DNA of 64,000 bases from a virus. The stretch lies in IMG/VR virus record IMGVR_UViG_3300042691_053605, positions 1 through 64,000 of that record. One strand, 5' to 3'. Positions 6,529 through 30,895 of this stretch are shown piece after piece (position 1 is the stretch's first letter; every line of letters begins with the position of its first letter). The position numbers and the translations under genes are program-made. The notes under the pieces were generated by a model. The model did no database searches, had not been told where the DNA came from, and saw only the letters and a list, made by a program, of their open reading frames with translations.

Positions 6529-6558
6529 CTATATCTTTTTTGTTTTTTGCGAAAGATC

Positions 6559-6857: not shown

Positions 6858-6866
6858 CTATATATC
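6858..6866 (-). promoter_or_regulatory. putative late promoter GATATATAG
   Basis: Motif recurs upstream of structural and CTS-tagged genes; resembles T4 late TATAAATA. Confidence 0.55.
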
Positions 6867-16680: not shown

Positions 16681-16708
16681 AAAAAAGGCAGCTTAATTGC
16701 TGCCTTTT
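16681..16708. terminator. bidirectional terminator
   Basis: AAAAGGCAGC-ttaatt-GCTGCCTTTT between convergent genes. Confidence 0.8.
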
Positions 16709-17111
16709 ATTTTTCTCCGTAAAGCTCGTGATAGCTTTTAGTATGTTTAGAAGTTTTTAAGAGCTTCTTTCCTTTTTTATCTCCAGGCAATTCTTTATAT
16801 GCTTCAGGATCATCATCATCCGCTGCAGCCTGGTCAGCCATTTGAGCTTTTTTCTTGTCCTCGGTACTCTTACTAATTCCTTTGTAATACGGATGCTCGC
16901 CTTCTTCTACAATAAATGTAAGCTGTGCGGCATCGTATGTTTTTAAGGAGCCATCGGCAAATTTGATGTTAAATTTTTTGCCATAAGAACTCATAACAAT
17001 TCCAGTGCGGTTTTCGGCTTTTACATTAGCAGAATCGCCAACCTGAACATCTTGCCATCTGACATCTTCATTTAAGAAGTTTTCAAATGTGTGTATGTGT
17101 TTCATATTCAT
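16707..17111 (-). CDS. hypothetical protein with CTS-like N-terminus (SH3/KOW-like core)
   Basis: Likely start MNMKHIHTFENFLNED, inside the ORF-track call. Confidence 0.75.
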   Translation of the reverse strand: MNMKHIHTFENFLNEDVRWQDVQVGDSANVKAENRTGIVMSSYGKKFNIKFADGSLKTYDAAQLTFIVEEGEHPYYKGISKSTEDKKKAQMADQAAADDDDPEAYKELPGDKKGKKLLKTSKHTKSYHELYGEK

Positions 17112-17112
17112 A

Positions 17113-17457
17113 TTACTTTTTTGGTTTGAATCCGGCATCTCTAGCTTCTTTTGCAAGATCTGAATCCGCCTTACCCCAAGTTCCCTTTCCACCAGTCAAA
17201 AATGAGTTTACGCGAGCGTAACCCCATTGTTCTTGGCCAGCTCCTGGGCGATGTCCACTTTTCCATGCAGCCATTCCACGACGCATAACAGCACGAATAA
17301 TTCCAATCGGGCAACCAGATTCTTTAGCCTTATTTTTTAGGCCAGTCTCGAGTTCTTCACTATCAAGTGGAGAACGGTCAGTTGACTGCTTATCCTCATC
17401 TTCGGCTTCCCAAATTTGGTCCCAAAGGAATTCTTCATACAGTTTTACGTGGCTCAT
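17113..17457 (-). CDS. conserved viral hypothetical protein with CTS-like N-terminus
   Basis: MSHVKLYEEFL; RRGMAAWKSGHRPGA..QWGYARVNSF motif recalled from large DNA viruses. Confidence 0.75.
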   Translation of the reverse strand: MSHVKLYEEFLWDQIWEAEDEDKQSTDRSPLDSEELETGLKNKAKESGCPIGIIRAVMRRGMAAWKSGHRPGAGQEQWGYARVNSFLTGGKGTWGKADSDLAKEARDAGFKPKK

Positions 17458-17666
17458 ATAAATAGAGGTGTTTCATTATCATCGGCAAAATCTATAACCC
17501 GAATCCCTTCATGTAATTCCGTTAGCGGATGGTTAACAGTTTGGCCTTTGTAATTTTTTATTTTTGCATACACTGTGTTGTTTTCGGACAGCCAAAAACC
17601 TACAATTTTTCCGCGGGAGCCTTTAGCTTCCACGCTTAAGTTTTTAATTTCTTTTGCGCCTCTCAT
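17454..17666 (-). CDS. hypothetical protein
   Basis: 70-aa ORF with ATGA overlaps on both sides. Confidence 0.65.
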   Translation of the reverse strand: MRGAKEIKNLSVEAKGSRGKIVGFWLSENNTVYAKIKNYKGQTVNHPLTELHEGIRVIDFADDNETPLFI

Positions 17667-18265
17667 GCTAAATAACCTGAAATGAATTTTGAATCTTCGA
17701 CCAGTGGAACAAACTTATTTCGTATATGCTCATCCACATCGGAAATGTTATATCCTACAATAAAGCCAATTAAGGCTCCTTTTATGCAGAAAATAGGAAC
17801 AGTAACAAATTGCTGTATTCCCATACTCTCTAATTCATGTCGATCCTTTGGATCCATTTCATCGGTCAAACTTGCAAAACATTTTTTCTTCATCATAGTA
17901 CTTATCCACTTGGGATATTCTGATGTAAGTATATTTTGCTGAGACCGCTTTATTTTTTCATAGCCAGGCGCCACTGCTTCATAGGTCATAGAAAACTTTT
18001 TCATGCTTTTTCCTTGAAAAAACTTTCCTCCGTTATGAAATTGAAATATTGATACTCGGTCAAACCCGTGACGATCTCTGAAGTCTTCCAGCCACTCTTG
18101 GACTAGCACCATTTCTTCTAGATCGCTTTCCTTTATTACCTCTTCTCTCTCTTTGGCAACTATTGCCTTTCGGCTATCCAAATGGCTTTTTACCACTACG
18201 GTAATAATGGCCACCACAATTGACCCAAGAGTTGTAATGATTGATTGAAGTACTACTGGTTCCAT
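17663..18265 (-). CDS. single-TM + GAF-like domain protein, putative holin (T4 T-like)
   Basis: N-terminal TM (IITTLGSIVVAIITVVV), DRVSIFQFHNG, VTVPIF..GALIGFI. Confidence 0.55.
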   Translation of the reverse strand: MEPVVLQSIITTLGSIVVAIITVVVKSHLDSRKAIVAKEREEVIKESDLEEMVLVQEWLEDFRDRHGFDRVSIFQFHNGGKFFQGKSMKKFSMTYEAVAPGYEKIKRSQQNILTSEYPKWISTMMKKKCFASLTDEMDPKDRHELESMGIQQFVTVPIFCIKGALIGFIVGYNISDVDEHIRNKFVPLVEDSKFISGYLA

Positions 18266-18403
18266 TTATCTTCCCTGTCCTGCGTAAGGCTTTTTATAGT
18301 TTTTAGAGCTCTTATTTTTAGAAGTGCTCTTGGAGTGTCTTCCTATTTTTCTTTTTGGCTTTTTAACGTAAGTACGTGCTGAGTCTGATTTTTGTTTGGC
18401 CAT
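18266..18403 (-). CDS. small basic protein (45 aa), missing from the ORF track
   Basis: MAKQKSDSARTYVKKPKRKIGRHSKSTSKNKSSKNYKKPYAGQGR; fills the intergenic gap and abuts the next gene. Confidence 0.7.
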   Translation of the reverse strand: MAKQKSDSARTYVKKPKRKIGRHSKSTSKNKSSKNYKKPYAGQGR

Positions 18404-18424
18404 CTCATAGGACAGTTATTTTAG

Positions 18425-19102
18425 TTACAAGAGTTCTAATTCTTGCATTATTTCCATTATGTCTTCGTAGCTTAAATCTAAAATGTCTTTTTCTAATCGG
18501 GATCTATCCGTATGCGGCCTGCCGGAAATAACATCGGTAATTTGTTCTTTTCTCTTCTTATCGCCGCTATCAAATTCCGCTAAAATTTTTTGAGAGTTGA
18601 CATCGGCAAGCGCCATTTCCTCAATGTACTCCTCAAAAACTTTTACTTTCTTTTTCTTCTTTTTCTTTTTTCCGGATCCGGAAAAAATGTCTCCGCTGCC
18701 AGTACTGCCAACGTTAGCAGGTACCACATTACCCATACCAGGGGTGTTAGTAACTGAAGCCGCGGGTGCAGAAAAATCTTCATCAACTTTAACCTTTTTA
18801 TTCTTTTTGCCGTCAATAAAGTCCATAAAACTTTGAATTAGCGGATCAGTTTGATCTTTACGAACCGCGGCGCCTTGAGCTGCCATCATCTGTGCTTGCG
18901 TGTCCCACCAGTAAAAATACTCTTTAACGTGATCGGGTAAACCTTTATGAGGCGTTTCTGCAAAATCTTTTAACTGCTGAAGAGTCATAGAATCTGCAAG
19001 ATCTTTTACCTCTTGTGATGCATCCGCGGGATCCATATCACCTTTCTTTAAGGCGTATGCCATTCCCATTAACTTTTGCTGCGCTTTAGATACTGATGGC
19101 AT
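18425..19102 (-). CDS. hypothetical protein (DUF3008-like N-terminus, poly-Lys tract)
   Basis: MPSVSKAQQKLMG...QLKDFAET.HKGLP; K8 tract; internal KVFEEYIEE. Confidence 0.75.
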   Translation of the reverse strand: MPSVSKAQQKLMGMAYALKKGDMDPADASQEVKDLADSMTLQQLKDFAETPHKGLPDHVKEYFYWWDTQAQMMAAQGAAVRKDQTDPLIQSFMDFIDGKKNKKVKVDEDFSAPAASVTNTPGMGNVVPANVGSTGSGDIFSGSGKKKKKKKKVKVFEEYIEEMALADVNSQKILAEFDSGDKKRKEQITDVISGRPHTDRSRLEKDILDLSYEDIMEIMQELELL

Positions 19103-19284
19103 TATTTACCTTCTAATTTAATGATCTCTTGACGTGCATTTTCAATAACATCAAGCGTTTTAATCATATCTAATTTATCGGCAATTTCCGATGCCTTATC
19201 AAAATGTGAAAGCAGCTCCTTTAATTCGGGAACCAGCCTTTCATGTATGACAGCAATTTCACGGTATTCTCCAAAAGTCTTCAT
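19102..19284 (-). CDS. hypothetical protein with CTS-like N-terminus
   Basis: MKTFGEYRE; coupled to neighbours by TAATG overlaps. Confidence 0.7.
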   Translation of the reverse strand: MKTFGEYREIAVIHERLVPELKELLSHFDKASEIADKLDMIKTLDVIENARQEIIKLEGK

Positions 19285-19616
19285 TATGCTCCAGTTATTT
19301 TGTGATGAACGCGGTGTCCTTCTTTTGAAAGCGAATAGGTTTTAGAACCATTGCTCTCTTTTACCTTAAACAAATGAGGATTGGCTTTTACCCAGCCTAT
19401 ATTTGTTTTTCTACCAGTTTCCTCATTCATTAGTTTGAAGAACTCGGAAAGCTCTTCTTCGCTGACCGAACCCTTTTCTTTTACAAAAGATAACACTTTT
19501 TCTCTTACGGGTGCGTAATCAGAAATGCGTTTTTCCGGATGAGCCTCTGTGTATTTACGTTTTAGCGTAACTAAGGCTTCATTTAAGAATTGATCGTATG
19601 AAAGTACTCTGTTCAT
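19284..19616 (-). CDS. putative winged-helix protein with CTS-like N-terminus
   Basis: MNRVLSYDQFLNEA; KVLSFVKEKGSVSEEEL...YSLSKEG. Confidence 0.6.
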   Translation of the reverse strand: MNRVLSYDQFLNEALVTLKRKYTEAHPEKRISDYAPVREKVLSFVKEKGSVSEEELSEFFKLMNEETGRKTNIGWVKANPHLFKVKESNGSKTYSLSKEGHRVHHKITGA

Positions 19617-19622
19617 TATGTA

Positions 19623-19631
19623 CTATATATT
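19623..19631 (-). promoter_or_regulatory. putative late promoter AATATATAG
   Basis: Variant of the recurring GATATATAG motif. Confidence 0.4.
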
Positions 19632-19632
19632 T

Positions 19633-21324
19633 TTACAAATATGCTTTAGAATTCCAATTTGTCATCATATTTGGCCAATAATTAACACAAATTTCTGGAA
19701 AAATCTTTTTGAATTTTGGGAGATCCGCCTTTTCCATGCATTCCTCAATATCACGTGACTCTCCAGTTTTGAACGGGGCAATTGTTACGCCAGCATCTCT
19801 TCCAAGTGATTTAAGAGTTTCCTTTTCTAGAACCAGACGGTTTCCACCACGAGCTACATAAATGTTTTTTACCTCTCGGGGTTTAGCTGCTTTAACTATT
19901 TTACCTACACTGCTGTGAATCATAGACTCACTACATTCAAAGATATGTGGATATTCTTCAACTAGTCGATTTGCAAGTGCTCGGCCTTCTGCCTTTTCAA
20001 GTCCCCATTTACAGTGTGAGCCTGCGGACTCATCATGCACCAACATCATACCGCGTCCGTTTAATTTCATTAAACGCTCGCATTCGTTAATTACTTTTTT
20101 AGTAACCTCTCCAGCATTAATAAGCAGCACATCGCAAGTATGAACCGGTTCTTTGTCATCGCCGTCTTCTTCATTCGTATTTGCAAACGGCAGAGCAAAG
20201 TAAGATTGTAACATACCAACAGCTTTCATATGCTGGTCTGATGAAAAGCCGTCTTCCGCGCCAATATTAGCCTGCTTATAGTCGCTATCTAAACTGGGTT
20301 CCTCCTTTTCTAATATAGAAGTAAATTCTGGAAAACCTGCCTCTTCAGGATTTCTAACACAGTCATCAATATCCGCAATTTTTTGGTTATACTGTGATAC
20401 AAAACTCTCAGACAGCAGACCAATTGCTTTTTTCGGCTTTCTTAAATTTGCAATAAAAATACTGAGCAAATACTCATAACTGCGGTTCTCAATAAGTTCT
20501 CGCGTTTTTGGATTGCGTATCCATTTGTTATTGAATTTCCCGGATTTTTGCAAGAAATGCGGTTTTTCAATTCCCATCTCTAAAAACTCAGGTCCTCTCT
20601 CATTTACAAAAGAGTTAAAACATTCGCAAACAATTTCCAAATACCGCTCATCAGGACGAGGGGATTTGAATACAAATTTATCAAAATTCAGCGTTTGTAA
20701 ATGCTCAAACATCTGCATTAATAACAGATCAAATGTATGACTTTTTTGTGACTTTTCTTTAATTTGGGTATCACCTATTTTTATGACGCCATCGCCATTT
20801 TTTAAGATATAGGTTTTTTGCGGATCCCAAATTTCATATAGAGGCTGACCGCCTTTTAGAGAACTGATAGTCTGCTCGACAATACGGCCATCAATAGTTC
20901 CAGGCTTTTCAGATTTTACATGCAATAGTCCTGCCCATTTTTCAATTAGTGCAGGCTCTTGAATTTCTTTAATAACCTTGCCTTTACTCCGAATAGTAAT
21001 ATCCGTAAGAGTTAGACCTTCGGAAATACTCCAACTAAAACCGAAACGGTGGTTTTTAGGAAGATTAATTGTTATTGCCTCGGGAAGTTTTTCAATTTTT
21101 GAAATTGCGTTTTCGTACAAATCACTAACCGTACGATCAATACGATTTAGCGGTTCTTCAGAATTCTTTCCAAAAAATCTGAGTCTTCCAGTTCGTGAAA
21201 GCTCAAATGAAAAACGATAGGCATCAGATTTTTCTGTTACCGTTACGTCTTTTGTAAAAAAGTCTCTTACCCAAGACTCTCCGCGTTTTGCAAACGCTTC
21301 TTGTATTGTATTAATTCCTGCCAT
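19633..21324 (-). CDS. degenerate RNA-ligase-like plus HIGH-nucleotidyltransferase-like fusion protein
   Basis: VTEKSDA (KxDG-like) near the N-terminus; C-terminus resembles that of the 28093..28674 protein but lacks HxGH. Confidence 0.45.
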   Translation of the reverse strand: MAGINTIQEAFAKRGESWVRDFFTKDVTVTEKSDAYRFSFELSRTGRLRFFGKNSEEPLNRIDRTVSDLYENAISKIEKLPEAITINLPKNHRFGFSWSISEGLTLTDITIRSKGKVIKEIQEPALIEKWAGLLHVKSEKPGTIDGRIVEQTISSLKGGQPLYEIWDPQKTYILKNGDGVIKIGDTQIKEKSQKSHTFDLLLMQMFEHLQTLNFDKFVFKSPRPDERYLEIVCECFNSFVNERGPEFLEMGIEKPHFLQKSGKFNNKWIRNPKTRELIENRSYEYLLSIFIANLRKPKKAIGLLSESFVSQYNQKIADIDDCVRNPEEAGFPEFTSILEKEEPSLDSDYKQANIGAEDGFSSDQHMKAVGMLQSYFALPFANTNEEDGDDKEPVHTCDVLLINAGEVTKKVINECERLMKLNGRGMMLVHDESAGSHCKWGLEKAEGRALANRLVEEYPHIFECSESMIHSSVGKIVKAAKPREVKNIYVARGGNRLVLEKETLKSLGRDAGVTIAPFKTGESRDIEECMEKADLPKFKKIFPEICVNYWPNMMTNWNSKAYL

Positions 21325-21385
21325 TGTTTTTTCGGCTTTAAAGGTTTTTGTTTTTTAACCTATTGTTTGTTTTGTGGTTATTCCG

Positions 21386-22270
21386 TTACGCTAAATTTGA
21401 TGGAAGCGGAAGTTTGGCTTCCTCCAATTTTTTCTTAAAATCATTTAGGATTTCTCCTACTTTATCGTGAAACTTAAAATCGCCTCCAGTAATTAGGTTG
21501 TACAGACTTTCGTATGTCATAATGTCTGATACCTTATGGCCTCCATTAAACAGCAAGTTTACAATATCTGACGGTACTTTTGTAATGAGTTTATCAAATT
21601 CTTTTAGAAGGGTTGCATTTTTAAGCAAGCCTTTTTTACCTTCAAAACTCTTTCGTACCTGAACAATTCCTTGGTTTAACCTAACTACATATGCTTGGTA
21701 TTCTGCAGTTTCTCCTTTATCGGTTTCTTTCGTAATTTCAAAGAAAGACTTTCCGATTGCGGCCATGAGTAGCAGGTTACGATATGCACCTTTATACTCA
21801 GATTCGGCTTTAGTAAAGTCAGGCGAATGATACATAAAACGACTCCAGTCCAAATCATTGGTTAACATAAAGTCGAGCTGTCCTACTCCTTTTTTGTCAT
21901 CTCCTGCAATAGGAACTCCGATACTTACCTGATTAAACCCGACTGCAAGTTTGGTAGAATAACCAAGGCTCTTAAGTTTTTTGTCTAATTCAAATAGAGC
22001 ATTTTGTAATGACGTTCCTAAATGGCCTGCAATTTTATCCGCAGATACTGCTACATCAATATCTCCACTAGTGGCGCCTTGAACTTTTTTACCAGCGCTT
22101 CCTATAACCGCGGCATCATCATCAATACCAACCAGACCAATTTGCGGAAAGATATTCTTTACTACCCAGTCAATAGTTGGCTTTACTTCGTCTTGCTGAA
22201 ACGGAACTGCGTTATCAATGGAGTTTCCGCTCTCTAGCAAGAATTGTTCAAAAAGCTTAACGTACTTCAT
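21386..22270 (-). CDS. pol-beta superfamily nucleotidyltransferase with CTS-like N-terminus
   Basis: MKYVKLFEQFLLESG; IGSAGKK...SGDIDVAV...QLDFM. Confidence 0.75.
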   Translation of the reverse strand: MKYVKLFEQFLLESGNSIDNAVPFQQDEVKPTIDWVVKNIFPQIGLVGIDDDAAVIGSAGKKVQGATSGDIDVAVSADKIAGHLGTSLQNALFELDKKLKSLGYSTKLAVGFNQVSIGVPIAGDDKKGVGQLDFMLTNDLDWSRFMYHSPDFTKAESEYKGAYRNLLLMAAIGKSFFEITKETDKGETAEYQAYVVRLNQGIVQVRKSFEGKKGLLKNATLLKEFDKLITKVPSDIVNLLFNGGHKVSDIMTYESLYNLITGGDFKFHDKVGEILNDFKKKLEEAKLPLPSNLA

Positions 22271-22271
22271 C

Positions 22272-22799
22272 TTATTTCCAATCAGAACGTTTTGCAGCTT
22301 CGGAAGAGGTTAGCCATTTTCCAGCAATTACGTCATAGTAAATGTCATCGCGTTGCTCACCTGAAAAGATCAAAGAACAACCATTAGATCCACCGTTTGT
22401 ATGCTTATATGAGTAGTTCAAAGTTGCCCAAATATACGGAGCAAATTCAAATTTTTCGCTTGCTGCTTTATTAATTTCAGGAAAGCTTCCGCCACTAAAA
22501 ATACCAATGTAGACTTCAGCAAAACCGTATTGCATAAACCCTAATTCTTTTCCAGTAAACGGCTTACTGTCAAAATCAATTCTTCTTCCTTTATCTTTTG
22601 CAGTTAGCGGATTGTATTTAATTCCTTGACGGCTTAGCAAATCATTAAGAGCAGGACCGGCATTTTTAAGAATATCAGCTTTCAAAGAAGCCTCATCCTT
22701 GAATTTATCGTCACTTACAAATTGCATGACACCCTCATTTAGAGCTGGCTCAGAAAAGCCTTCTTTCAAATAGTTTTCGTAATTGTTTACATGTTTCAT
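22272..22799 (-). CDS. hypothetical protein with CTS-like N-terminus
   Basis: MKHVNNYENYLKEG...ALNEG. Confidence 0.8.
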   Translation of the reverse strand: MKHVNNYENYLKEGFSEPALNEGVMQFVSDDKFKDEASLKADILKNAGPALNDLLSRQGIKYNPLTAKDKGRRIDFDSKPFTGKELGFMQYGFAEVYIGIFSGGSFPEINKAASEKFEFAPYIWATLNYSYKHTNGGSNGCSLIFSGEQRDDIYYDVIAGKWLTSSEAAKRSDWK

Positions 22800-23080
22800 T
22801 TTATTTGACTTATATTAGTTATTTTGTTTCCCTTCTCAATAGGATTGCTTTTATCAGCGGAGTACAATAAGCCATCTTTAATTAAACGGTTAAGTACTTC
22901 GTCCTTTACAGGGTCAATTGGACCAAAATCTGCTACATCATCCCATGCCTCTTCCACATTTTCAGGATCAATCCATCCCGCGCCTTGCTTAATTGATTTG
23001 ACCAATTGCTTATAGTCGTACTCAAATTGCTTAACTGCGCCTTCATTTACATAGCTTTCAAAAGTGTGCAAGTGTTTCAT
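22796..23080 (-). CDS. hypothetical protein with CTS-like N-terminus
   Basis: MKHLHTFESYVNEG. Confidence 0.8.
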   Translation of the reverse strand: MKHLHTFESYVNEGAVKQFEYDYKQLVKSIKQGAGWIDPENVEEAWDDVADFGPIDPVKDEVLNRLIKDGLLYSADKSNPIEKGNKITNISQIK

Positions 23081-23100
23081 ATTACAAGTATTTTTACAGT

Positions 23101-23685
23101 CTATTTATTCACCACCGAATACTCGGTATATGACTTTTTGGTAGGCTTGGTGTTTGGAAAGTAGTACTTCTCAGTTTTCTTGCCTGCTATAATAGTCTTG
23201 GTAAATCCATCAGGAACCGTAGCGCCACTTGCTAATTTAATTGACTTAGCAGAAAAATGCAAATCAATTATGACTTTTACTTCACCAGTTTTTGCAAGTT
23301 CTCTCTCGTGTACTTCTAAAAATCTCCATACTCCGCGATTCAAATTCTCTTGTTGCAGAGCACAGTTCAAATATGAAAATGTCATTTTAAGATACTCCTG
23401 ATTACACGCAAAATCTGCGGCAGGTGCCATGTGTCCTTTATCCCATTCATTTCCTGCATAATCATTATGATCCGATGTTTTAATTCCACTCACTGGAAAG
23501 AAATCCAGTCCCGCTCTTGAAAAAACAGTTTCGGTACATGCAATGGTGTATTTCACCTGTAGCGGCTGTTCTAATTCTTCGGAATACTTTACCCAGAAAA
23601 CAGCGTTTCTAGTTTCCACAATACGATTCTGCGCAACAGAGATTAACGTAAAGAGTAAGAAGACAATTGTAAGTAGTCTTTTCAT
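23101..23685 (-). CDS. secreted DNA/RNA non-specific endonuclease (NucA/EndoG family)
   Basis: Signal peptide MKRLLTIVFLLFTLISVA-Q; WDKGHMAPAAD, LNCALQ, LNRGVWRFLE, VPDGFTK. Confidence 0.88.
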   Translation of the reverse strand: MKRLLTIVFLLFTLISVAQNRIVETRNAVFWVKYSEELEQPLQVKYTIACTETVFSRAGLDFFPVSGIKTSDHNDYAGNEWDKGHMAPAADFACNQEYLKMTFSYLNCALQQENLNRGVWRFLEVHERELAKTGEVKVIIDLHFSAKSIKLASGATVPDGFTKTIIAGKKTEKYYFPNTKPTKKSYTEYSVVNK

Positions 23686-23945: not shown

Positions 23946-23964
23946 TGATCTTATATACTTGGAA

Positions 23965-24492
23965 TTACCAAGGTTCTGTAGAACTTAAACCTAATTGTTT
24001 TCCAAATAGGCTTGGCGCGTAACATGCCCAAAAACCTGGCGTGCTTGGATCCATTTTCTTTTTAAGATCACACTGTTGGCGGGACCAAAAAGATGCCGCT
24101 GCTGCCGGATCATCATTTTTAATACTCAAGCCAGAGGTATCACCCCATGTAATTTCATTTGCAATGATATTCCCATCATCATCTTTTTTTCCACTGTTAT
24201 GGTAAACCACAAATTTCTTATCGCCGCCTCTTTTAGGAGTGTCAAGTTCTACTTTGCGGCCATCTTTATTAACCGCGGCTTTTCCAACTTCCAGGTTAGC
24301 AGCCATCCAGGCAGCTTTATCTTTTAGGATGATGTTTCCTTCATCCCAATACTTTTTTGTCTCTTCAAAGAGTTGTTTGTAAGCATCGCTGCCAATGCGG
24401 TAGACGCTATTGGTAATATCCAACCCATTTTCCATGTGGTAACGAAATCCTTCGGAAACCTCAAATTGTTCAAATGTCTTTACGTATTTCAT
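23965..24492 (-). CDS. conserved phage protein with CTS-like N-terminus
   Basis: MKYVKTFEQFEVSEG; PKRGGDKKFVVY...SFWSRQQCD...PGFWAC. Confidence 0.78.
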   Translation of the reverse strand: MKYVKTFEQFEVSEGFRYHMENGLDITNSVYRIGSDAYKQLFEETKKYWDEGNIILKDKAAWMAANLEVGKAAVNKDGRKVELDTPKRGGDKKFVVYHNSGKKDDDGNIIANEITWGDTSGLSIKNDDPAAAASFWSRQQCDLKKKMDPSTPGFWACYAPSLFGKQLGLSSTEPW

Positions 24493-25196
24493 ATCTTTAT
24501 GCCAAAATGTTCTTTAACCGCTTCTTCGATGCCTAACGCATAAGACCAAATGTCTTCGGATATCTTTTTTTCATCAGCTCTAACAAACGTAATGAGTGGC
24601 CAGTAAATGATGTTTTTAGTTATGGTTTCACTGGGAAAAGTCATTTCATAATACTTACCATTCTTTTCACCAAATGCATGAACTATTAGGCTTTCTGCAT
24701 AGTACTTGCCAATGTCATCTTTTTTCATACAGATTCCACCAATTGCTTTACCGCCTGTTTCTTCAAACCACTTTGATGCGTTACCAAAACATTGGTTTCT
24801 TGCGCCGCCACCCCCAATCCATTCTGCTTCAACGCTTTTTGTTATTTCATCCAAAACAGCAGCAATTACTGCTGTCTTACTAATAAAATTAACAGCTTCT
24901 AGCTTACCTTCTTTATCAACTGTGTAATCTTTGAACCATCCAGGTCTTTTTTCAGCAGGATCTTTATCGTTCCAGCGTTTTGCAATCTCATCTGCTTGCT
25001 CTAATGCAAATTTTCCAGCTGGTGTATTTTTCCACTTGCCAGACTTAAGTATTGAAAGCGTTTTTGACTTTGCCGATGAAGATCCGCCAGAAGCATACTT
25101 TAAGTTTCCACCTAAGCCTGTGCTGTAGACAGTTTCATTTAGTTGCTGAAATCCTTCAGAGACCTGGAAGTCTTCAAATGTCTTTACGTACTTCAT
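24489..25196 (-). CDS. putative papain/transglutaminase-like Cys-His protein with CTS-like N-terminus
   Basis: MKYVKTFEDFQVSEG; NQCFGNA...IVHAF...YYEMT. Confidence 0.55.
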   Translation of the reverse strand: MKYVKTFEDFQVSEGFQQLNETVYSTGLGGNLKYASGGSSSAKSKTLSILKSGKWKNTPAGKFALEQADEIAKRWNDKDPAEKRPGWFKDYTVDKEGKLEAVNFISKTAVIAAVLDEITKSVEAEWIGGGGARNQCFGNASKWFEETGGKAIGGICMKKDDIGKYYAESLIVHAFGEKNGKYYEMTFPSETITKNIIYWPLITFVRADEKKISEDIWSYALGIEEAVKEHFGIKI

Positions 25197-25723: not shown

Positions 25724-26391
25724 AGAGGTATGTAGTTTTGCGGATGCGTTGAAGATGATACTTTACCATTATGTAAAACATATGCATCTTTCCGAATTTC
25801 CGCAGTCCAAGTGCCTTTTAATTTGCCACCTTGTTTCTTAATGTATTCCAAATAGAGCCGGCCTCTTTTTGTTTGCGGAATTGGAGTAAGCTCCTCACCC
25901 AGTTCAGTCTTTGGCATAATCCAAATCTCATCAACTTTAATCCATTGGATCTGCTGAAGTTCTTTCATTAATTCTTGCATAATATCGGAAACTGTTGATA
26001 TTACGCGAAACTGTTCACCGAAATTAGTAATGGCTTCACTGTTTGGATTATTTCCTTTTTCTACACCAAATGACACTGCAAAAGAAACATTGTAATCTTG
26101 CGGTTTAGTTGCAGAAGCTTTTATTTGTCCAAAATTGATGTAATGATGTTCATTAAACCAGCCCAGTATCTTAACTGTGTAGGTTGCATTATCACTCTTA
26201 AACTCATAAGACAAATCTGGAAGACGATTGTTCTGTGAAGAACTTCCTCTCTCCCACTTTGACATATCAGCCATCCAGGTACCAACTTTATTACTGCCGG
26301 TACGTTTCCAAGAAAACGGAGAAACGCCTTCTCCTATTTCATTTAGAGTCTGTTCATTTAGAAAGCTGTCAAACGTATGAATATGTTTCAC
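25720..26391 (-). CDS. hypothetical protein with CTS-like N-terminus
   Basis: Likely GTG start at 26391: (M)KHIHTFDSFLNEQTLNE. Confidence 0.78.
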   Translation of the reverse strand: MKHIHTFDSFLNEQTLNEIGEGVSPFSWKRTGSNKVGTWMADMSKWERGSSSQNNRLPDLSYEFKSDNATYTVKILGWFNEHHYINFGQIKASATKPQDYNVSFAVSFGVEKGNNPNSEAITNFGEQFRVISTVSDIMQELMKELQQIQWIKVDEIWIMPKTELGEELTPIPQTKRGRLYLEYIKKQGGKLKGTWTAEIRKDAYVLHNGKVSSSTHPQNYIPL

Positions 26392-26392
26392 C

Positions 26393-26890
26393 CTATTTGA
26401 TATTTTTAAGAGCAAATTCAATTAGCTCTAGTGCAGGTTTTTCAACATCCTTTTCAACCTTAAAGATTGCACGGTTACCGTAAGGCTGAAAATTTGTATC
26501 AAAGGCTTTCTTATTAGAAATAAACATATCGGCAACTTTCTTTGCCATTCCTTTTGGATCGGCTTTAAGCTCTTCTAGATTTGTAACTATATTATTGCCA
26601 GGTGAACCAATGTATCTCTTATCTCCTCTGTCGTCTTCAGATCCGTACCCGGATCTGATAAACAGATTTCCATTATGTGGTTCAATGGCAATAAGAACAA
26701 TATTTGGTCTGTCCAAAAAGTTTACAGTTTTGTCATTACCAAATACTTCTCCAGAATAGAAGACGTAAATATCTCTATTTGAATCTTTTTTTACTTCAGG
26801 CTTTTGGCCGTTCCAAAGACTTGCACTGATAGTTGCCTTTTCAGCAGCAGCCTCATTTAAGAAACTTTCAAATGTACTTATGTGTTTCAT
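26393..26890 (-). CDS. hypothetical protein with CTS-like N-terminus
   Basis: MKHISTFESFLNEA. Confidence 0.8.
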   Translation of the reverse strand: MKHISTFESFLNEAAAEKATISASLWNGQKPEVKKDSNRDIYVFYSGEVFGNDKTVNFLDRPNIVLIAIEPHNGNLFIRSGYGSEDDRGDKRYIGSPGNNIVTNLEELKADPKGMAKKVADMFISNKKAFDTNFQPYGNRAIFKVEKDVEKPALELIEFALKNIK

Positions 26891-27411
26891 AGGTCACCGA
26901 CTCTTTTAATTTTTACTTCTTTCTTATTGTTGGATCCAACCGCTTTTACCGCGGTTCCTTTTTGTAACTTAAACATATCAGAATTCTTTACAATGATTGA
27001 TCCTAAAGTATCACGAAGAGGATCACCGTCCATAAAGTACAGCGAATCGCTGTCGTCGTTTTGTCTTTCAAACCCAGCAATTTTTGTATTAACTACACCA
27101 GAATCAGTGGTAATTTCATACTGACCTGCAATTTTTACGTTATATGGAATTGGCTTATACGCTTCCACCAATTCGCTTTCTTTTACTATTATTGCGCGAG
27201 TTCCAAAACGTTCTTTTACCAAACGAATAGCCGTACGAGCTTTACCACTATTTTCTACTTCAAATACGGTAGGCTTAACTTTTGTGTACTTAACACCGTT
27301 AGCTTTTAAGTCTCTTTCCATTGAATCTGCTGCAGACTTTGTAAGAGTAACCGTTATCGTGTCAGAAGTATTTTCGCTTAAAAAGCTTTCAAATGTATGT
27401 ACGTGTTTCAT
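26887..27411 (-). CDS. hypothetical protein with CTS-like N-terminus
   Basis: MKHVHTFESFLSEN. Confidence 0.8.
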   Translation of the reverse strand: MKHVHTFESFLSENTSDTITVTLTKSAADSMERDLKANGVKYTKVKPTVFEVENSGKARTAIRLVKERFGTRAIIVKESELVEAYKPIPYNVKIAGQYEITTDSGVVNTKIAGFERQNDDSDSLYFMDGDPLRDTLGSIIVKNSDMFKLQKGTAVKAVGSNNKKEVKIKRVGDL

Positions 27412-27791
27412 TAGTATGACAATTTTATTTCAATTTCTTGACGTTTCTTAATTAACGATTCAATTTCACTATCAACTATATTAAGCCGACTTCCATAACG
27501 ATTTGCATCATCATCGGTCCAAGAAGTGCCTTTTTGTCCGGCTTCAGCTTCCATATCGTCATAAATGTTTCTACGCTCAGCATACGCATCTTTTAGATCT
27601 TGCGCAATGTCCCAAAGCTGATTTTCTAAAGCTTCTCTCTTTTTACCGTAAACTCTTTTTTTCATTCTTTCAGCTTGGTCGGCGGCTTTCTTTTCTCGGT
27701 CCATTCTAGAAGCTCGGATTGCCACTAATACCGGGTCATTTTGATCTAGACCTTCATTTAGGAATCCTCCAAATGTGTGTAAATGTTTCAT
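27411..27791 (-). CDS. coiled-coil protein with CTS-like N-terminus
   Basis: Likely start MKHLHTFGGFLNEG. Confidence 0.78.
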   Translation of the reverse strand: MKHLHTFGGFLNEGLDQNDPVLVAIRASRMDREKKAADQAERMKKRVYGKKREALENQLWDIAQDLKDAYAERRNIYDDMEAEAGQKGTSWTDDDANRYGSRLNIVDSEIESLIKKRQEIEIKLSY

Positions 27792-27793
27792 TC

Positions 27794-28015
27794 TTATCTC
27801 CATTTTTTATCAAGCGTATCTATTACCTGATTGATAAGTGTACTTAACTCATCAGGATTGATATCATTCTTCTTCATATAGGCATCAAACAGATTTTGAC
27901 GTGAACCTAATTTCAAAACATCCGAAATAAAGTTACCCGCGTCAAACTGATCTACTTTTCGAAGTTCTTTTTCATTGACTTTATTGAAGTCGTTAAACGA
28001 TTGAATGTTTTTCAT
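27794..28015 (-). CDS. hypothetical protein with CTS-like N-terminus
   Basis: MKNIQSFNDFNKVNE. Confidence 0.72.
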   Translation of the reverse strand: MKNIQSFNDFNKVNEKELRKVDQFDAGNFISDVLKLGSRQNLFDAYMKKNDINPDELSTLINQVIDTLDKKWR

Positions 28016-28028
28016 ACTTTTAATTTAA

Positions 28029-28090
28029 TAGTATAAAGGTAATACAATTTTTTCAAATAAAAAAATGTTTTGACCTAAACTTATTAACAA
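28029..28090 (-). promoter_or_regulatory. putative early/host-type promoter (TTGTTAATAA-N43-TTTATACTA)
   Basis: Second copy of the 10624..10685 element; contains TACCTTTA. Confidence 0.45.
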
Positions 28091-28092
28091 AT

Positions 28093-28674
28093 TTATTTTA
28101 TGTATTTACGCATTTCTTCGTAATACTTCCAGAGCTCTTTTGGCATCAGACTTTCAAAAGCCTTTTTATCATCATCACGTAGCGCTTGACGAACTTTTGT
28201 GCCGCTCGGTCCATCGCCTTCGCGAGTATCTACAAGTTTCAATGAAAAAGCTGGATCTACCGGTGTATCGGTTTTAGGACCTTTAATGTATTCCACTTGA
28301 CGCTCGTAATCTTTCATACGATCTGCACCGGCGCCAAGTCCCATAGGCTCGTACGCGTTATCTCTTAAAAAACGTACAAACCAAGGAATAACGGTCTTTC
28401 CGTAATTTTGTGGATAAATGAAATAGTCTGCAATAAAGGAATGACCTTTAACTATGTCATTTCCCATTTTCTGCAAAAGAGAATCTGGGAACGGCGATTC
28501 CTCATTTTTTGAAAGAATTTGTAACGGAATTACTGGCAATCCAAACAACTCAGAGGTTTTCTTCATTGCGGCCAAATGCCCGTTATGAAAAGGCTGAAAT
28601 CTTCCTGGGAAGAAAACTACCTTTCTGCTGCCAGCTTCAAAAACAAAGCTTTCAAATGTTTTGACGTATTTCAT
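28093..28674 (-). CDS. HIGH-family nucleotidyltransferase (cytidylyltransferase/NMNAT-like) with CTS-like N-terminus
   Basis: MKYVKTFESFVFEAG; FPGRFQPFHNGH, GAGADR, SGTKVR. Confidence 0.85.
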   Translation of the reverse strand: MKYVKTFESFVFEAGSRKVVFFPGRFQPFHNGHLAAMKKTSELFGLPVIPLQILSKNEESPFPDSLLQKMGNDIVKGHSFIADYFIYPQNYGKTVIPWFVRFLRDNAYEPMGLGAGADRMKDYERQVEYIKGPKTDTPVDPAFSLKLVDTREGDGPSGTKVRQALRDDDKKAFESLMPKELWKYYEEMRKYIK

Positions 28675-28675
28675 A

Positions 28676-29998
28676 TTACTTTTTGTAAGCAAGAATGCTT
28701 CTTATTTGATGTAACGGAGCAAAGATTCCGGTGTACTTGTACAGGTTTCCTTTGAATACAAAGGTTATACCTTCGGTTGGCACAATAGATTCTAAACCAC
28801 CAGCCGCGGCAACCCGTGTTAATTCATGCTCTAATTTTTCCACATCCTTTTCATCACCGTTTGTACGAACTTTTGCAATGGTATCATCAATTTCCTTTCG
28901 CATAGCTTGTGTAGCTTGAGTTGGATTTGCTGATAGGAAGGCGCTGATGTTTTTCATCATTTCAGTACCTATCTCTAAAAACAGACTTTCAAGTGGAGCA
29001 TAGATTTTTCTTTTTAGAGCCTTTCCTTTGTCCTTTTCTAATGTGATAAACCAATCAGCGGCAGGGCCTAAATCTTTCTTAAGTGTAGCAACGGTATATG
29101 ACTTATCAATATCAGCCAATCGACGGGCTAAACCATCAACCGCAATTTCTGGAATTTCCACTTTAGCCGCCTTTGCCTCTTCAAGAAGAATACGCTTTCC
29201 CATACCCAATGCATAATCACCAACAGTACTGCTGGGATTACATCCGCTTTCTGACATTACATCAGAAAGCTTCTTTTCATAATAGGCAGCGCGAGCTTTT
29301 GTATTTGGAAATGGAGTAGAAGCAATATCTTGCGGACCGCGAACATAAAATTTCTTTTGGGCGGCAGCATTTGCATCTGCAATTAATTTTCCTAAATCTC
29401 GGCCGGCTTGCTTATCTTCGCCAATTGCGTTTCCAGCGTCATCGTGTTCAACCACTCCGTGAAGAACTAACATGTCCTTTCCGTACGGAACTGTATTTTG
29501 AGTAATCGGGGTAATCACTTCTACGGAAGCAAACTTTTTACCTTCATCAAAATACTTCTTCTTATCGGCATCTGATAGTTTTCCGATTGCTCCTTCTAAA
29601 TCCGCCATTGCAGCATTATACGCAGTTTCAATATCTCCACGACCAGCAAATAAGCTGGCAATCCCACTTCTGTCCAACGCAGCTTCTCCCGCATTTTTTA
29701 GATGGGACTTGTTTCGAGCGGCAATTAGCTTCCCGCCTTTCCAAGAGATCATGATATTTTGGCCATCCGTCTTCTCTTGCACAAAGTTTTCTGGACCAAA
29801 TGCTCCATTTACGGTAGAGCTGATCATATCTTTTAGGTCTTGCATAGTTAGACCAACATCCTCAAAAGGATGACTGATATGACCGTATGCTCCACCTTCA
29901 AAAAGCTGTTCTTCATAGAGACCAGCCGATTCATCCATTTTCATCAGCTCAATAAGAGCAGATTCTCGGAGAAACTGGGTATAACTTTTAAGACTCAT
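28676..29998 (-). CDS. RNA-ligase-like covalent nucleotidyltransferase with CTS-like N-terminus
   Basis: MSLKSYTQFLRES; GHISHPFE, motif I EKTDGQN, ARNK, EGITF, YKYTG. Confidence 0.65.
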   Translation of the reverse strand: MSLKSYTQFLRESALIELMKMDESAGLYEEQLFEGGAYGHISHPFEDVGLTMQDLKDMISSTVNGAFGPENFVQEKTDGQNIMISWKGGKLIAARNKSHLKNAGEAALDRSGIASLFAGRGDIETAYNAAMADLEGAIGKLSDADKKKYFDEGKKFASVEVITPITQNTVPYGKDMLVLHGVVEHDDAGNAIGEDKQAGRDLGKLIADANAAAQKKFYVRGPQDIASTPFPNTKARAAYYEKKLSDVMSESGCNPSSTVGDYALGMGKRILLEEAKAAKVEIPEIAVDGLARRLADIDKSYTVATLKKDLGPAADWFITLEKDKGKALKRKIYAPLESLFLEIGTEMMKNISAFLSANPTQATQAMRKEIDDTIAKVRTNGDEKDVEKLEHELTRVAAAGGLESIVPTEGITFVFKGNLYKYTGIFAPLHQIRSILAYKK

Positions 29999-30047
29999 AT
30001 TACTGTGCTTATGTGATCCTGAAGTTTTTATTGAAACTTCTTTTCAC

Positions 30048-30467
30048 TTACTTTTTTTCTGTGTCGATCTCGCCTTCTGCATTAACCTCAGTACCTTGTT
30101 CTTCCTCTTTCTTTGGCTCAGCAGCTTTTACCTCTCCACCTTTTGGAGTTTCTTCAGCAGCAGGAACTTCTTCGGTTTCTTCAGTAGGTTTTGCAGCAGG
30201 GATTTCACCTTCTTTAACACCAGCTTCTTCTTTCTCTTTTTCTACCTTTTCTTTTGCAGAATCTTTTACCCCTTTTCCGGCTTCCCAGTCAGCAGCAATT
30301 TCATTAAAGAATTCTTTTTTCTTCTCTTCATCAAGATCTGCAGGTGAATCTACTCCGTACTTTGAAAGTTTTGCTTGGAAGTAATCTTGGTAAGATTTTT
30401 GTAAGTCAGATTTTTTTGCTTCTTCAGCTTCGCGGATTGAACCGATCCATTCACTAAATTTTTTCAT
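30048..30467 (-). CDS. acidic low-complexity protein, possible head core/scaffold
   Basis: MKKFSEW; YQDYFQAKLSKYGVDSPADLDEEKKKEFF; E/K/P-rich tail. Confidence 0.6.
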   Translation of the reverse strand: MKKFSEWIGSIREAEEAKKSDLQKSYQDYFQAKLSKYGVDSPADLDEEKKKEFFNEIAADWEAGKGVKDSAKEKVEKEKEEAGVKEGEIPAAKPTEETEEVPAAEETPKGGEVKAAEPKKEEEQGTEVNAEGEIDTEKK

Positions 30468-30484
30468 TGTTATGATTTTTATTT

Positions 30485-30871
30485 TTATGACATTCCTATC
30501 ATGTTTTGGAATTTTGAGTAGTATTTATCCGTTTCCTCGCTAAGAATTTTTGTGACCTCTCCTTGATCCATCCCTACAAGTTCTGCTAACATAATGATAA
30601 TATCCTCATCAATTCTTAACTTTCGGTCTAACGCATGGACGTACGTGGTAATACACTGATTAATTTTTGTCTCTTTTGCCTTATCACCTTTTGCCTTTGG
30701 CCAAAAAATATCAAGCAGCACAGAACGCATTCCATCCAGCGTGGGATCGGAATGATTTTTACCCATAGAAACCGGGTTATTGGTAGTTCTTAATGAATGT
30801 GAGCTGGAATCTTTCATATTTCCAGCGCCTGCCGCGTAACCTTCAGAAAGAAACTCTAAAAAAGACTGCAT
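30485..30871 (-). CDS. hypothetical protein with CTS-like N-terminus
   Basis: MQSFLEFLSEG. Confidence 0.75.
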   Translation of the reverse strand: MQSFLEFLSEGYAAGAGNMKDSSSHSLRTTNNPVSMGKNHSDPTLDGMRSVLLDIFWPKAKGDKAKETKINQCITTYVHALDRKLRIDEDIIIMLAELVGMDQGEVTKILSEETDKYYSKFQNMIGMS

Positions 30872-30886
30872 TCTTTGACATTTTTT

Positions 30887-30895
30887 CTATATATC
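30887..30895 (-). promoter_or_regulatory. putative late promoter GATATATAG heading the CTS-tagged array
   Basis: Recurring motif, 15 nt upstream of the start at 30871. Confidence 0.6.

What the first reader, a model, noticed from the sequence alone, without database searches (positions are those of the whole stretch)
16707..30871. About 20-gene array of unrelated proteins sharing a T4 capsid-targeting-like N-terminal tag: candidate virion-packaged effector system
Seen: about 20 genes in this 14-kb block, plus outliers at 5918, 6559 and 36984, start with variants of MK[HY][VIL]x[TLS][FY]ExF[LV]xE and then diverge completely. Examples are MKHIHTFENFLNE, MKYVKLFEQFLLE, MKHLHTFESYVNE, MKYVKTFESFLYE, MKHISTFESFLNE, MKHVHTFESFLSE, MKHLHTFGGFLNE, MNRVLSYDQFLNE, MSLKSYTQFLRE and MQSFLEFLSE. 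Several carry a second L-N-E just downstream. Known: T4 internal proteins carry a short capsid-targeting sequence (IPII/IPIII MKTYQEFIAE) that prohead protease gp21 removes at (I/L)-x-E, and IPI* is an injected anti-defence protein. Inference: this phage uses a portable packaging tag to load a much larger, enzyme-rich payload into the head for injection with the DNA. Internal support: the array sits behind the same GATATATAG motif as the structural genes, replication genes lack the tag, and the untagged cupin/nuclease pair inside the array has a different promoter motif.
Basis: partly seen in the sequence, partly recalled or inferred. Interest (0 to 1): 0.92.

Follow-up and report, generated by a model that had tools for sequence, protein, structure and literature searches.

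The report
Capsid-targeting tags on phage cargo genes
A large uncultured phage related to the Lak megaphages puts the same 13-residue, T4-style "send me into the capsid, then cut me off" leader on at least 27 otherwise unrelated genes, so its packaged and probably injected proteins can be read straight from the sequence.

Summary
A profile of the 13-residue leader finds 18 top hits in the 143-kb record, and all of them lie at ORF starts on the coding strand. With looser variants, 27 genes carry it, 17-19 of them in the 16.7-30.9 kb block. The proteins behind the leader are unrelated to each other.

Conservation is codon-periodic, and the flanking DNA is not conserved, so selection acts on the peptide.

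The same genome encodes a T4 gp21-family (S77) prohead protease with its catalytic His and Ser intact. It is fused to a scaffold-like domain carrying about 10 tandem repeats of the same aromatic-x-x-aromatic-Leu/Ile-x-Glu core. It also encodes a gp23-like capsid protein with a conserved Leu-x-Glu in its propeptide.

The four most conserved tag positions match, in spacing, the four residues of the T4 capsid-targeting sequence shown to control targeting and cleavage.

The tag occurs in about 35 IMG/VR contigs and in a published 462-kb huge phage. It is absent from 596 Gb of prokaryotic genomes and from phage PTm1.

Verdict: a T4-type capsid-targeting system, greatly expanded. Packaging, cleavage and injection remain inferred. 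The scan had noted similar leaders in another window of this genome.

The parts
30887..30895 (-). Late-type promoter-like motif GATATATAG, 16 nt upstream of the first array gene
   Evidence: The motif occurs 14 times on the coding strand and 2 times on the other. Most copies are intergenic (3 overlap a called ORF), and most lie 6-42 nt (two 104 and 216 nt) before a start codon. One precedes the protease-scaffold/capsid operon and one variant copy (AATATATAG) precedes the gene upstream of the baseplate-injector gene.
30485..30871 (-). Tagged gene, short variant leader (10 residues, ends Leu-Ser-Glu), 128 aa, no family
30048..30467 (-). Doubtful variant leader (Phe-x-x-Trp-Ile ... Ile-Arg-Glu), 139 aa, phrog_28651 of unknown function
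28676..29998 (-). Tagged gene (variant leader, then two further hydrophobic-x-Glu sites before the conserved domain), 440 aa. Ligase-like nucleotidyltransferase with an invariant Lys-x-Asp-Gly. Core gene of the clade.
   Evidence: 559 homologues were found. In 112 of 114, [LIVMF]-x-Glu sits immediately before the invariant domain start, and the propeptide varies from 14 to 46 aa. AF2 model: helix 6-24, disordered 26-40. Best fold matches are RNA/DNA ligase adenylyltransferase domains, Z 4-5.8.
28093..28674 (-). Tagged gene, 193 aa, cytidylyltransferase/NMN-adenylyltransferase-like
   Evidence: Pfam CTP_transf_like 1.7e-6. The Rossmann H-x-G-H core starts at residue 17, against residues 2-6 in solved cellular enzymes, so the leader is an add-on. 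HMM 24.0 bits.
27794..28015 (-). Loose variant leader, 73 aa
25193..27791 (-). Five consecutive strongly tagged genes (starts 27791, 27411, 26890, 26391 GTG, 25723 GTG), 126-223 aa, no families
   Evidence: HMM 21-28 bits, each at an ORF start. No Pfam family over its curated cut-off and no PHROG. Mature parts unrelated.
23965..25196 (-). Two tagged genes with a 14-residue variant leader (… Phe-Glu/Gln-Val-Ser-Glu), 175 and 235 aa
   Evidence: HMM 18.9 and 14.7 bits
23101..23945 (-). Untagged pair inside the array: an 87-aa ORF and a DNA/RNA non-specific endonuclease with a hydrophobic signal-peptide-like N-terminus
   Evidence: Endonuclease_NS 3.2e-22. The N-terminus is read. A protein with a different destination lacks the tag.
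21386..23080 (-). Three tagged genes (starts 23080, 22799, 22270). The 294-aa product has a Gly-Ser…Asp-x-Asp signature, a lead for a Pol-beta-type nucleotidyltransferase.
   Evidence: HMM 21-27 bits. In the atlas, one neighbouring cluster has NTP_transf_2 in 33% of members, which is a lead only.
19633..21324 (-). Untagged 563-aa gene, no family
19284..19631 (-). Tagged gene (110 aa) with a variant late-type motif AATATATAG 7 nt upstream
   Evidence: HMM 22.4 bits; motif
17454..19284 (-). Untagged stretch: 60-aa ORF (doubtful leader), DUF3008 protein, 45-aa very basic ORF (18266-18403), 200-aa membrane/GAF-like protein, 70-aa ORF
16707..17457 (-). Two tagged genes (starts 17457 variant, 17105 strong). 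Both match C-terminal segments of phrog_3041, a 678-position 'cytidyltransferase' family. The first is DUF5824.
16683..16708 (.). 10-bp G+C-rich hairpin flanked by A and T runs: a bidirectional terminator closing the array
5918..6837 (-). Outlier tagged genes 5918-6169 (variant) and 6559-6819 (strong, 30.0 bits), with an untagged gene between them. GATATATAG at 6858-6866.
36984..37310 (-). Doubtful outlier: starts Met-Lys-Thr-Phe and has Leu-Leu-Glu at 12-14, but no second aromatic. Preceded by GATATATAG.

Best explanation
The leader Met-Lys-His/Tyr-(Val/Ile/Leu)-x-Thr-Phe-Glu-x-Phe-Leu-Asn-Glu is a capsid-targeting propeptide of the T4 kind.

The proposed mechanism has five steps:
1. The tagged genes are transcribed late, together with the head genes.
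2. The leader forms a short amphipathic helix. Its two aromatic residues and the Leu lie on one face (i, i+3, i+4), and it docks the protein onto the scaffolding core of the assembling prohead.
3. That core is built by a 631-aa protein in which the gp21-family protease is fused to a scaffold-like domain made of 14-residue repeats with the same aromatic-x-x-aromatic-Leu/Ile-Ala-Glu core. The tag therefore probably works by imitating a scaffold repeat.
4. Once the gp23-like shell closes, the protease cuts after the Glu of Leu/Ile/Val-x-Glu. This removes the leader from each cargo protein, the propeptide from the capsid protein, and chops the scaffold.
5. The mature cargo stays in the head with the DNA and is delivered to the next host on infection.

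At least 27 unrelated cargo proteins are encoded in this half-genome. They include cytidylyltransferase-like, ligase-like, PAP2 and LicD enzymes.

Shown here: the tag, its position at gene starts, selection at the peptide level, the protease and capsid gene families, shared motifs, clade distribution and virus specificity.

Inferred: docking to the scaffold, cleavage, retention in the head, injection, and any anti-defence role.
For: 1. The tag sits only at ORF starts on the coding strand. There are 18 top HMM hits and 27 genes with variants, and the core is enriched 11-fold at N-termini.
2. Selection acts on the peptide. Codon-position entropy within the tag is 0.66/0.48/1.16 bits against 1.6-1.7 in the flanks. 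Ser and Leu switch between codon families, and upstream DNA is unconserved.
3. Cargo proteins are mutually unrelated. In the cytidylyltransferase the tag is an extension ahead of the fold as seen in solved cellular enzymes.
4. A Peptidase_S77 protease is present (48.9 bits, over the cut-off). It aligns to T4 gp21 (5JBL) and keeps the catalytic His and Ser. A gp23-family capsid protein is also present.
5. The literature gives the gp21 cleavage site as after Leu/Ile-x-Glu. In the 10-residue T4 CTS, residues 4 and 7 direct targeting and 8 and 10 direct processing (PMC9026906; the CTS is quoted). The tag has Phe/Tyr, Phe/Tyr/Trp, Leu/Ile/Val and Glu at exactly that spacing. One tagged gene outside the window (start 93609) has a 10-residue leader differing from the T4 CTS at only 3 positions.
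6. The same core recurs about 10 times at a 14-residue period in the scaffold-like domain, and once more at a conserved site. This is conserved in three related contigs and partly in LR756500. The capsid protein and its relatives keep Leu-x-Glu at one propeptide position.
7. The residue after the Glu is Ala, Ser or Gly in 68% of 117 related tags. A duplicated Leu-Asn-Glu is enriched just downstream.
8. The motif GATATATAG precedes the protease/capsid operon and the array; a variant copy (AATATATAG) precedes the gene upstream of the baseplate-injector gene. A terminator closes the array.
9. Distribution: 44 stretches in about 35 IMG/VR contigs with 144 tagged starts in arrays of up to 11. There are 9 starts in the 462-kb phage LR756500 against 0 for the control pattern. 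There are no hits in 596 Gb of prokaryotic genomes and no enrichment in phage PTm1.
10. A two-domain enzyme that is a single untagged protein in Microcystis phage Mel-JY01 is split here into two genes, each with its own tag.
Against: - No virion proteomics, N-terminal sequencing or cultured isolate exists for this clade. Packaging, cleavage and injection are therefore analogies.
- The alignment to T4 gp23 does not place the capsid protein's Leu-Asn-Glu-45 opposite the T4 cleavage site at Glu-65. The alignment is of low confidence there.
- The near-universal hydrophobic-x-Glu before the conserved start of the ligase-like domain (112 of 114) also occurs at the internal domain junction of the fused Mel-JY01 homologue. 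It may therefore belong to the fold rather than mark a cleavage site.
- The late class of the promoter-like motif rests on association with two structural operons only. Most other genes behind it have no recognisable family.
- Several cargo proteins are large (up to 46 kDa mature) and would have to pass through the tail channel.
- The scaffold role of the repeat domain is inferred from its position and composition, not from homology to gp22.
Confidence: 0.72

Rival explanations
1. The tag does send proteins into the prohead and is cleaved. However, most tagged proteins are assembly or core components (like T4 gp67, gp68 or scaffold accessories), or DNA-condensing proteins that stay in the capsid. 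They would not be effectors that act in the next host.
For: In T4, all core proteins, not only the injected ones, associate with the core through such propeptides and are cut by gp21 (PMC5694885; PMC9026906). Most tagged proteins here are small and match no family.
Against: The cargo is extremely diverse, unrelated and variable between related contigs. That pattern is typical of accessory or conflict genes, not of assembly parts. Four tagged products are enzymes with no obvious structural role. Mature pI values range from 4.1 to 9.6 and are not uniformly basic.
Confidence: 0.14
2. The leader acts in the cytoplasm of the infected cell and has nothing to do with the capsid. It could be a shared docking helix that assembles the tagged enzymes into a complex, a tag for timed proteolysis, or a translation-start-region adaptation for a host without Shine-Dalgarno sites.
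For: Three separately tagged proteins match different segments of one 678-position phage family (phrog_3041). Two tagged neighbours are fused in Mel-JY01, so the tag could serve to reassemble split enzymes. The tag codons are A/T-rich, which favours an unstructured start region.
Against: Third codon positions vary freely and Ser and Leu change codon family, so an RNA-level signal is unlikely. Highly expressed structural genes lack the leader. The match to the T4 CTS residues and to the protease motif, and its repetition in the protease-fused scaffold and the capsid propeptide, would then all be coincidence.
Confidence: 0.08
3. The shared N-termini have no function of their own. They would be a by-product of gene-cassette shuffling, for example recombination at a conserved 5' box that spreads new genes through the array.
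For: Tagged genes sit in tandem arrays that differ between related contigs, which suggests frequent cassette turnover.
Against: A recombination box should be conserved as DNA and extend upstream of the start codon. Here the upstream 39 nt are as variable as random flanks. Conservation is codon-periodic and stops exactly at the Glu. The tag is maintained across contigs whose orthologous cargo is only 65-90% identical.
Confidence: 0.03

Closest known systems
T4 capsid-targeting sequence (CTS) of internal proteins IPI/IPII/IPIII and Alt, removed by prohead protease gp21 (Mullaney and Black 1996; reviewed in PMC9026906, PMC3012670)
   Same: - A short N-terminal leader (10-14 residues) on otherwise unrelated proteins.
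- Aromatic residues at i and i+3, Leu/Ile at i+4 and Glu at i+6.
- A gp21-family protease and a gp23-family shell in the same genome.
- The idea that only the CTS is conserved among diverse injected defence-countering proteins.
   Different: - Scale: at least 27 tagged genes in half a genome, against a handful in T4, arranged in long tandem arrays.
- The consensus has three extra residues after Met-Lys.
- The cargo includes recognisable enzymes.
- The protease is fused to a repeat scaffold that carries the tag core about 10 times.
- The lineage is an uncultured jumbo-phage clade nearest to the Lak megaphages (40-43% capsid-protein identity), not Straboviridae.
- Nothing has been shown experimentally.
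Ejection and inner-body proteins of giant phages phiKZ, 201phi2-1 and SPN3US, processed by gp175/gp245 proteases (PMC5694885, PMC10052503, PMC9026906)
   Same: Jumbo phages with dozens of head-internal proteins. These are cleaved after Glu by a distant gp21 homologue and ejected into the host.
   Different: Their propeptides are mostly over 100 residues long and share no portable consensus. The cleavage motif is Ser/Ala-x-Glu. Here the leaders are short, uniform and end in Leu/Ile-x-Glu.
Phage P1 Dar anti-restriction proteins packaged in the head (PMC9024508, PMC12810830; details from my own knowledge)
   Same: Anti-defence proteins are loaded into the capsid during morphogenesis and delivered with the DNA.
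   Different: Loading in P1 is hierarchical, through partner proteins. It does not use one short cleavable tag shared by many genes, and no S77-type processing motif is involved.
Polyvalent proteins injected by some phages (Iyer et al., cited in PMC7824862)
   Same: Many conflict-related enzymatic activities are delivered with the DNA.
   Different: In that case the domains are strung into one giant polypeptide. Here each domain is a separate gene with its own tag, and one pair fused in Mel-JY01 is split here.

Membership tests
T4-type CTS / internal-protein system | gp21-family (Peptidase_S77) prohead protease encoded by the same phage | tested here: met
   PF03420 48.9 bits, over the cut-off, at genome 137092-138987. 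It aligns to T4 gp21 (5JBL) with the catalytic His and Ser conserved.
T4-type CTS / internal-protein system | gp23-family major capsid protein with an N-terminal propeptide bearing Leu/Ile-x-Glu | tested here: met
   PF07068 hits sum to 131.7 bits. Leu-Asn-Glu at residues 43-45 is conserved as Leu-x-Glu in three relatives. Its exact equivalence to the T4 site is unresolved.
T4-type CTS / internal-protein system | Short N-terminal leader ending in Leu/Ile-x-Glu, with aromatic residues at the positions equivalent to T4 CTS 4 and 7 | tested here: met
   Position counts in 117 related tags: Phe/Tyr 116, Phe/Tyr 117, Leu/Ile/Val 110, Glu 108. The residue roles in T4 come from PMC9026906.
T4-type CTS / internal-protein system | The tag is the only similarity among the proteins that carry it | tested here: met
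   All-against-all BLAST of the 27 mature parts gives one weak pair, E 2e-4.
T4-type CTS / internal-protein system | Scaffolding core (gp22-like) to which the CTS has affinity | tested here: inconclusive
   A repeat-rich domain fused to the protease carries the tag core about 10 times. Homology to gp22 was not tested.
T4-type CTS / internal-protein system | Late expression together with the head genes | tested here: inconclusive
   The same 9-nt motif lies upstream of the protease/capsid operon and the array, and a variant copy (AATATATAG) lies upstream of the gene that precedes the baseplate-injector gene. No transcript data were examined.
T4-type CTS / internal-protein system | Mature proteins present in virions with the leader removed, and delivered into the host | not testable with these tools
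   The clade is uncultured and no proteomic data are held.
phiKZ-like inner-body / ejection-protein system | Long (over 100 aa) propeptides cleaved at Ser/Ala-x-Glu | tested here: not met
   Leaders here are 10-14 residues (14-46 for the ligase-like family) and end in Leu/Ile/Val-x-Glu.

The most novel reading that the evidence does not exclude
A whole clade of Lak-related freshwater jumbo phages uses repeat mimicry as a general loading mechanism. Any protein that acquires one copy of the scaffold's own 7-residue repeat core at its N-terminus co-assembles into the core and is freed by the scaffold-fused protease. Each phage could then ship some 30-60 interchangeable proteins into the next host. 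These would include split RNA-repair and nucleotide-metabolism enzymes that act before any phage gene is expressed. The tag would then be a sequence key that lists the complete injected proteome of uncultured megaphages.
Probability: 0.4. Interest if true: 0.82.

Novelty: new variant of a known kind. Interest (0 to 1): 0.68.

Why it matters
What jumbo phages and megaphages carry inside their heads is known only for a few cultured phages, from laborious virion proteomics. For Lak-like phages nothing is known.

If this leader is a true capsid-targeting sequence, the packaged proteome of an uncultured clade can be listed from sequence alone. There are already hundreds of tagged ORFs in public contigs, which gives a ready catalogue of candidate first-strike proteins, such as anti-defence factors, RNA repair enzymes and nucleotide enzymes.

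The finding also points to a mechanism that is still unresolved in T4, namely what the CTS binds. The scaffold here is built of repeats of the tag core, which suggests docking by mimicry.

A 13-residue portable tag paired with its own protease could also serve as a tool for loading foreign proteins into large capsids.

Tried and rejected
- Megablast of the block against 50,697 phage records gave no match.
- tblastn with a 22-residue tagged N-terminus against the phage records gave no match. The query is too short.
- No paper in the library contains the tag core strings.
- PHROGs for ten genes behind the promoter-like motif returned nothing. Pfam identified only a baseplate-injector OB domain and an S1 domain. 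The 'structural' class of the motif therefore rests on the head operon directly, and on the baseplate-injector gene only through a variant copy upstream of its neighbouring gene.
- Foldseek on the 440-aa model gave only weak ligase matches (E 0.05 or worse). VIA-align gave Z 4-5.8. I call the protein ligase-like on the strength of the fold together with the invariant Lys-x-Asp-Gly, not as a member of a named ligase family.
- The alignment to T4 gp23 could not fix the capsid cleavage site.
- A DNA-level recombination box or regulatory site was considered and rejected on the codon-periodic conservation.
- I first read the hydrophobic-x-Glu before the conserved domain start in 112 of 114 homologues as proof of a second cleavage site. 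The fused Mel-JY01 homologue has the same tripeptide at an internal junction, so I downgraded this to 'consistent'.
- PTm1 was scanned whole as a negative control. It has no N-terminal enrichment.

Full report
**What the DNA is.** The window is the first 64 kb of a 142,917-bp IMG/VR virus record that CheckV rates about 50% complete. Almost all genes lie on the minus strand. The record carries a T4 gp23-family major capsid gene and a Peptidase_S77 (T4 gp21-family) prohead protease gene, and a UvsW-like helicase directly upstream of the block. Its capsid protein is closest to an uncultured 462-kb huge phage (LR756500, 43%) and to the Lak megaphages of Prevotella (40%). The Tenacibaculum jumbo phages follow at 31%. 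It is therefore a fragment of an uncultured jumbo phage of the Lak-related group. Homologous cargo genes sit on contigs of up to 318 kb.

A strict regular expression for the second half of the leader finds 13 matches in the six-frame translation of the whole record. Every one lies seven residues after an ORF-opening ATG or GTG on the coding strand. A profile built from them gives 18 top hits with the same property, and then falls to noise. With shorter and looser variants, 27 genes in the record carry the leader. Of these, 13 strong, 4 variant and 2 doubtful cases lie among the 25-26 genes between 16707 and 30871.

The core aromatic-x-x-aromatic-[LIVM]-x-Glu is 11 times denser in the first 20 residues of genes than elsewhere. 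After the leader is removed, the 27 proteins share a single weak BLAST pair.

**Selection is on the peptide.** Upstream DNA is not conserved. Within the tag, first and second codon positions have 0.66 and 0.48 bits of entropy and third positions 1.16 bits. The flanks on both sides have 1.6-1.7 bits. Ser is encoded by AGC, AGT and TCC, and Leu by five codons. This rules out a promoter, a recombination box or an RNA operator as the conserved object.

**Why it is a capsid-targeting propeptide.** Published work on T4 shows three things. gp21 cuts after Leu/Ile-x-Glu. The first 10 residues of IPIII suffice for encapsidation. Within them, residues 4 and 7 (Tyr, Phe) govern targeting and residues 8 and 10 (Ile, Glu) govern processing (PMC9026906; CTS quoted; PMC3012670).

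The four best-conserved positions of the tag here are Phe/Tyr, Phe/Tyr/Trp, Leu/Ile/Val and Glu, at the same spacing i, i+3, i+4, i+6. One tagged PAP2 phosphatase outside the window (start 93609) has a 10-residue leader that differs from the T4 CTS at only three positions.

The protease aligns to the T4 gp21 structure and keeps the catalytic His and Ser. It is the N-terminal third of a 631-aa protein. The remainder of that protein contains about ten 14-residue repeats, each with Tyr-x-x-Tyr/His-Leu/Ile/Val-Ala-Glu, plus a further conserved Phe-x-x-Phe-Leu-x-Glu site. The same architecture is found next to the portal gene in two of three related contigs and is also seen in LR756500.

The capsid protein has Leu-Asn-Glu at residues 43-45, conserved as Leu-x-Glu in three relatives. 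The protease's presumed obligatory substrates, scaffold and capsid propeptide, therefore carry the same motif as the leaders. The residue after the Glu is Ala, Ser or Gly in 68% of 117 related tags. A second Leu-Asn-Glu follows within 12 residues in 12 of them, against 0-2 in control windows. This recalls the redundant sites described for giant-phage propeptides.

**The tag is an add-on.** In the tagged cytidylyltransferase-like protein, the H-x-G-H Rossmann core starts at residue 17. In solved cellular enzymes it starts at residues 2-6.

The neighbouring 440-aa protein belongs to a family of at least 559 metagenomic proteins with an invariant Lys-x-Asp-Gly. Their N-terminal 14-46 residues vary in length and sequence but begin with the tag. 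The AF2 model has a helix at 6-24 and a disordered linker at 26-40. Its best structural neighbours are RNA/DNA ligase adenylyltransferase domains at Z 4-5.8.

In 112 of 114 homologues, a hydrophobic-x-Glu tripeptide immediately precedes the invariant domain start. I treat this only as consistent with a second cleavage site. The distant homologue in Microcystis phage Mel-JY01 has the same tripeptide at an internal junction, and there the cytidylyltransferase and the ligase-like domain form one untagged 639-aa protein. That comparison does show that an enzyme which is one polypeptide elsewhere is split here into two genes, each with its own leader.

**Regulation.** GATATATAG occurs 14 times on the coding strand and twice on the other. 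Most copies are intergenic, and most lie 6-42 nt before a start codon. One lies 6 nt before the protease-scaffold gene, which is followed after 29 nt by the capsid gene. A variant copy (AATATATAG) precedes the gene just upstream of a baseplate-injector gene. Others precede tagged genes at 30871, 6837 and 102211, with a variant (AATATATAG) at 19616.

The block has no convincing internal terminator on its strand. It ends in a 10-bp G+C-rich hairpin at 16683-16708. The array therefore looks like one or two late transcription units. This fits proteins made late in order to be used early in the next cell. The timing itself is inferred.

**Distribution and controls.** A degenerate DNA pattern for the strict tag finds 44 stretches on about 35 IMG/VR contigs of 4-200 kb. 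Profile scanning of those stretches gives 144 tagged ORF starts, in arrays of up to 11, with unrelated downstream sequences. Three of five large contigs carry the S77 protease. LR756500 has nine tagged starts, against none for the reversed control pattern.

The same pattern has no match in 596 Gb of prokaryotic genomes. The complete genome of Tenacibaculum phage PTm1 has a protease-scaffold fusion with different repeats. It shows no N-terminal enrichment, with 2 of 302 ORFs. No paper in the library contains the tag.

**What the cargo is.** Recognisable tagged products are:
- cytidylyltransferase/NMNAT-like;
- the ligase-like nucleotidyltransferase;
- a PAP2 phosphatase and a LicD-family protein, both outside the window;
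- two fragments matching the C-terminal part of phrog_3041;
- a possible Pol-beta-type nucleotidyltransferase, a lead only.

The rest match no Pfam or PHROG family. An untagged non-specific endonuclease with a signal-peptide-like N-terminus sits inside the array. It serves as an internal control: a protein with another destination lacks the tag.

**Verdict.** The principle is the known T4 CTS. What is new is its scale, its lineage, the enzyme cargo and the scaffold built from tag-like repeats. Physical packaging, cleavage and injection remain to be shown.

Noticed in passing
genome 137092-138987 (outside the window; L008:13092-14987): The prohead protease is fused to a scaffold-like domain of about 440 aa. 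This domain has about ten 14-residue repeats, each carrying a Leu/Ile-Ala-Glu site. The same architecture occurs in related contigs, in LR756500 and, with different repeats, in Tenacibaculum phage PTm1.
   Followed up: partly
window 18266-18403 (-): A 45-codon ORF in the 159-bp 'gap' of the array encodes a very basic, Lys/Ser-rich peptide without the tag. It could be a DNA-binding or condensing protein, or it may not be a gene.
   Followed up: no
window 28093-29998 (-) versus L070:5314-7233: The tagged ligase-like and cytidylyltransferase-like genes are separate and in reversed order here. In Microcystis phage Mel-JY01 they are fused into one 639-aa protein that lies next to the terminase and head genes.
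   Followed up: partly
window 18425-19102 (-): The untagged DUF3008 protein has an internal tag-like stretch (Val-Lys-Val-Phe-Glu-Glu-Tyr-Ile-Glu-Glu) at residue 156. This may be a relic of a fused tagged gene or an internal processing site. The tagged gene with start 102211 has a similar internal copy at residue 141.
   Followed up: no
window 23101-23685 (-): A DNA/RNA non-specific endonuclease with a hydrophobic, signal-peptide-like N-terminus is embedded in the array and is apparently exported rather than packaged.
   Followed up: no
window 40948-54941 (-) and genome 65946-74339: Three giant ORFs of 2096, 2556 and 2797 aa. The one scanned (2096 aa) has no PHROG match, and the first is preceded by the late-type motif. 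They are presumably fibre or tail proteins.
   Followed up: no
genome 129258-130052 and 130091-130867 (outside the window): Tandem paralogues whose first 30 residues are identical. They lie among several genes that share a Met-Ala/Ser-Thr-Leu/Ile-Thr/Lys-Thr/Ser... N-terminus (starts 125606, 128371, 132153, 132569, 132992, 61476). This is a second, different family of shared N-termini.
   Followed up: no
window 16683-16708: A perfect 10-bp hairpin flanked by A4 and T4 runs. It is a bidirectional terminator between the array and the plus-strand ORF at 16311-16679.
   Followed up: no
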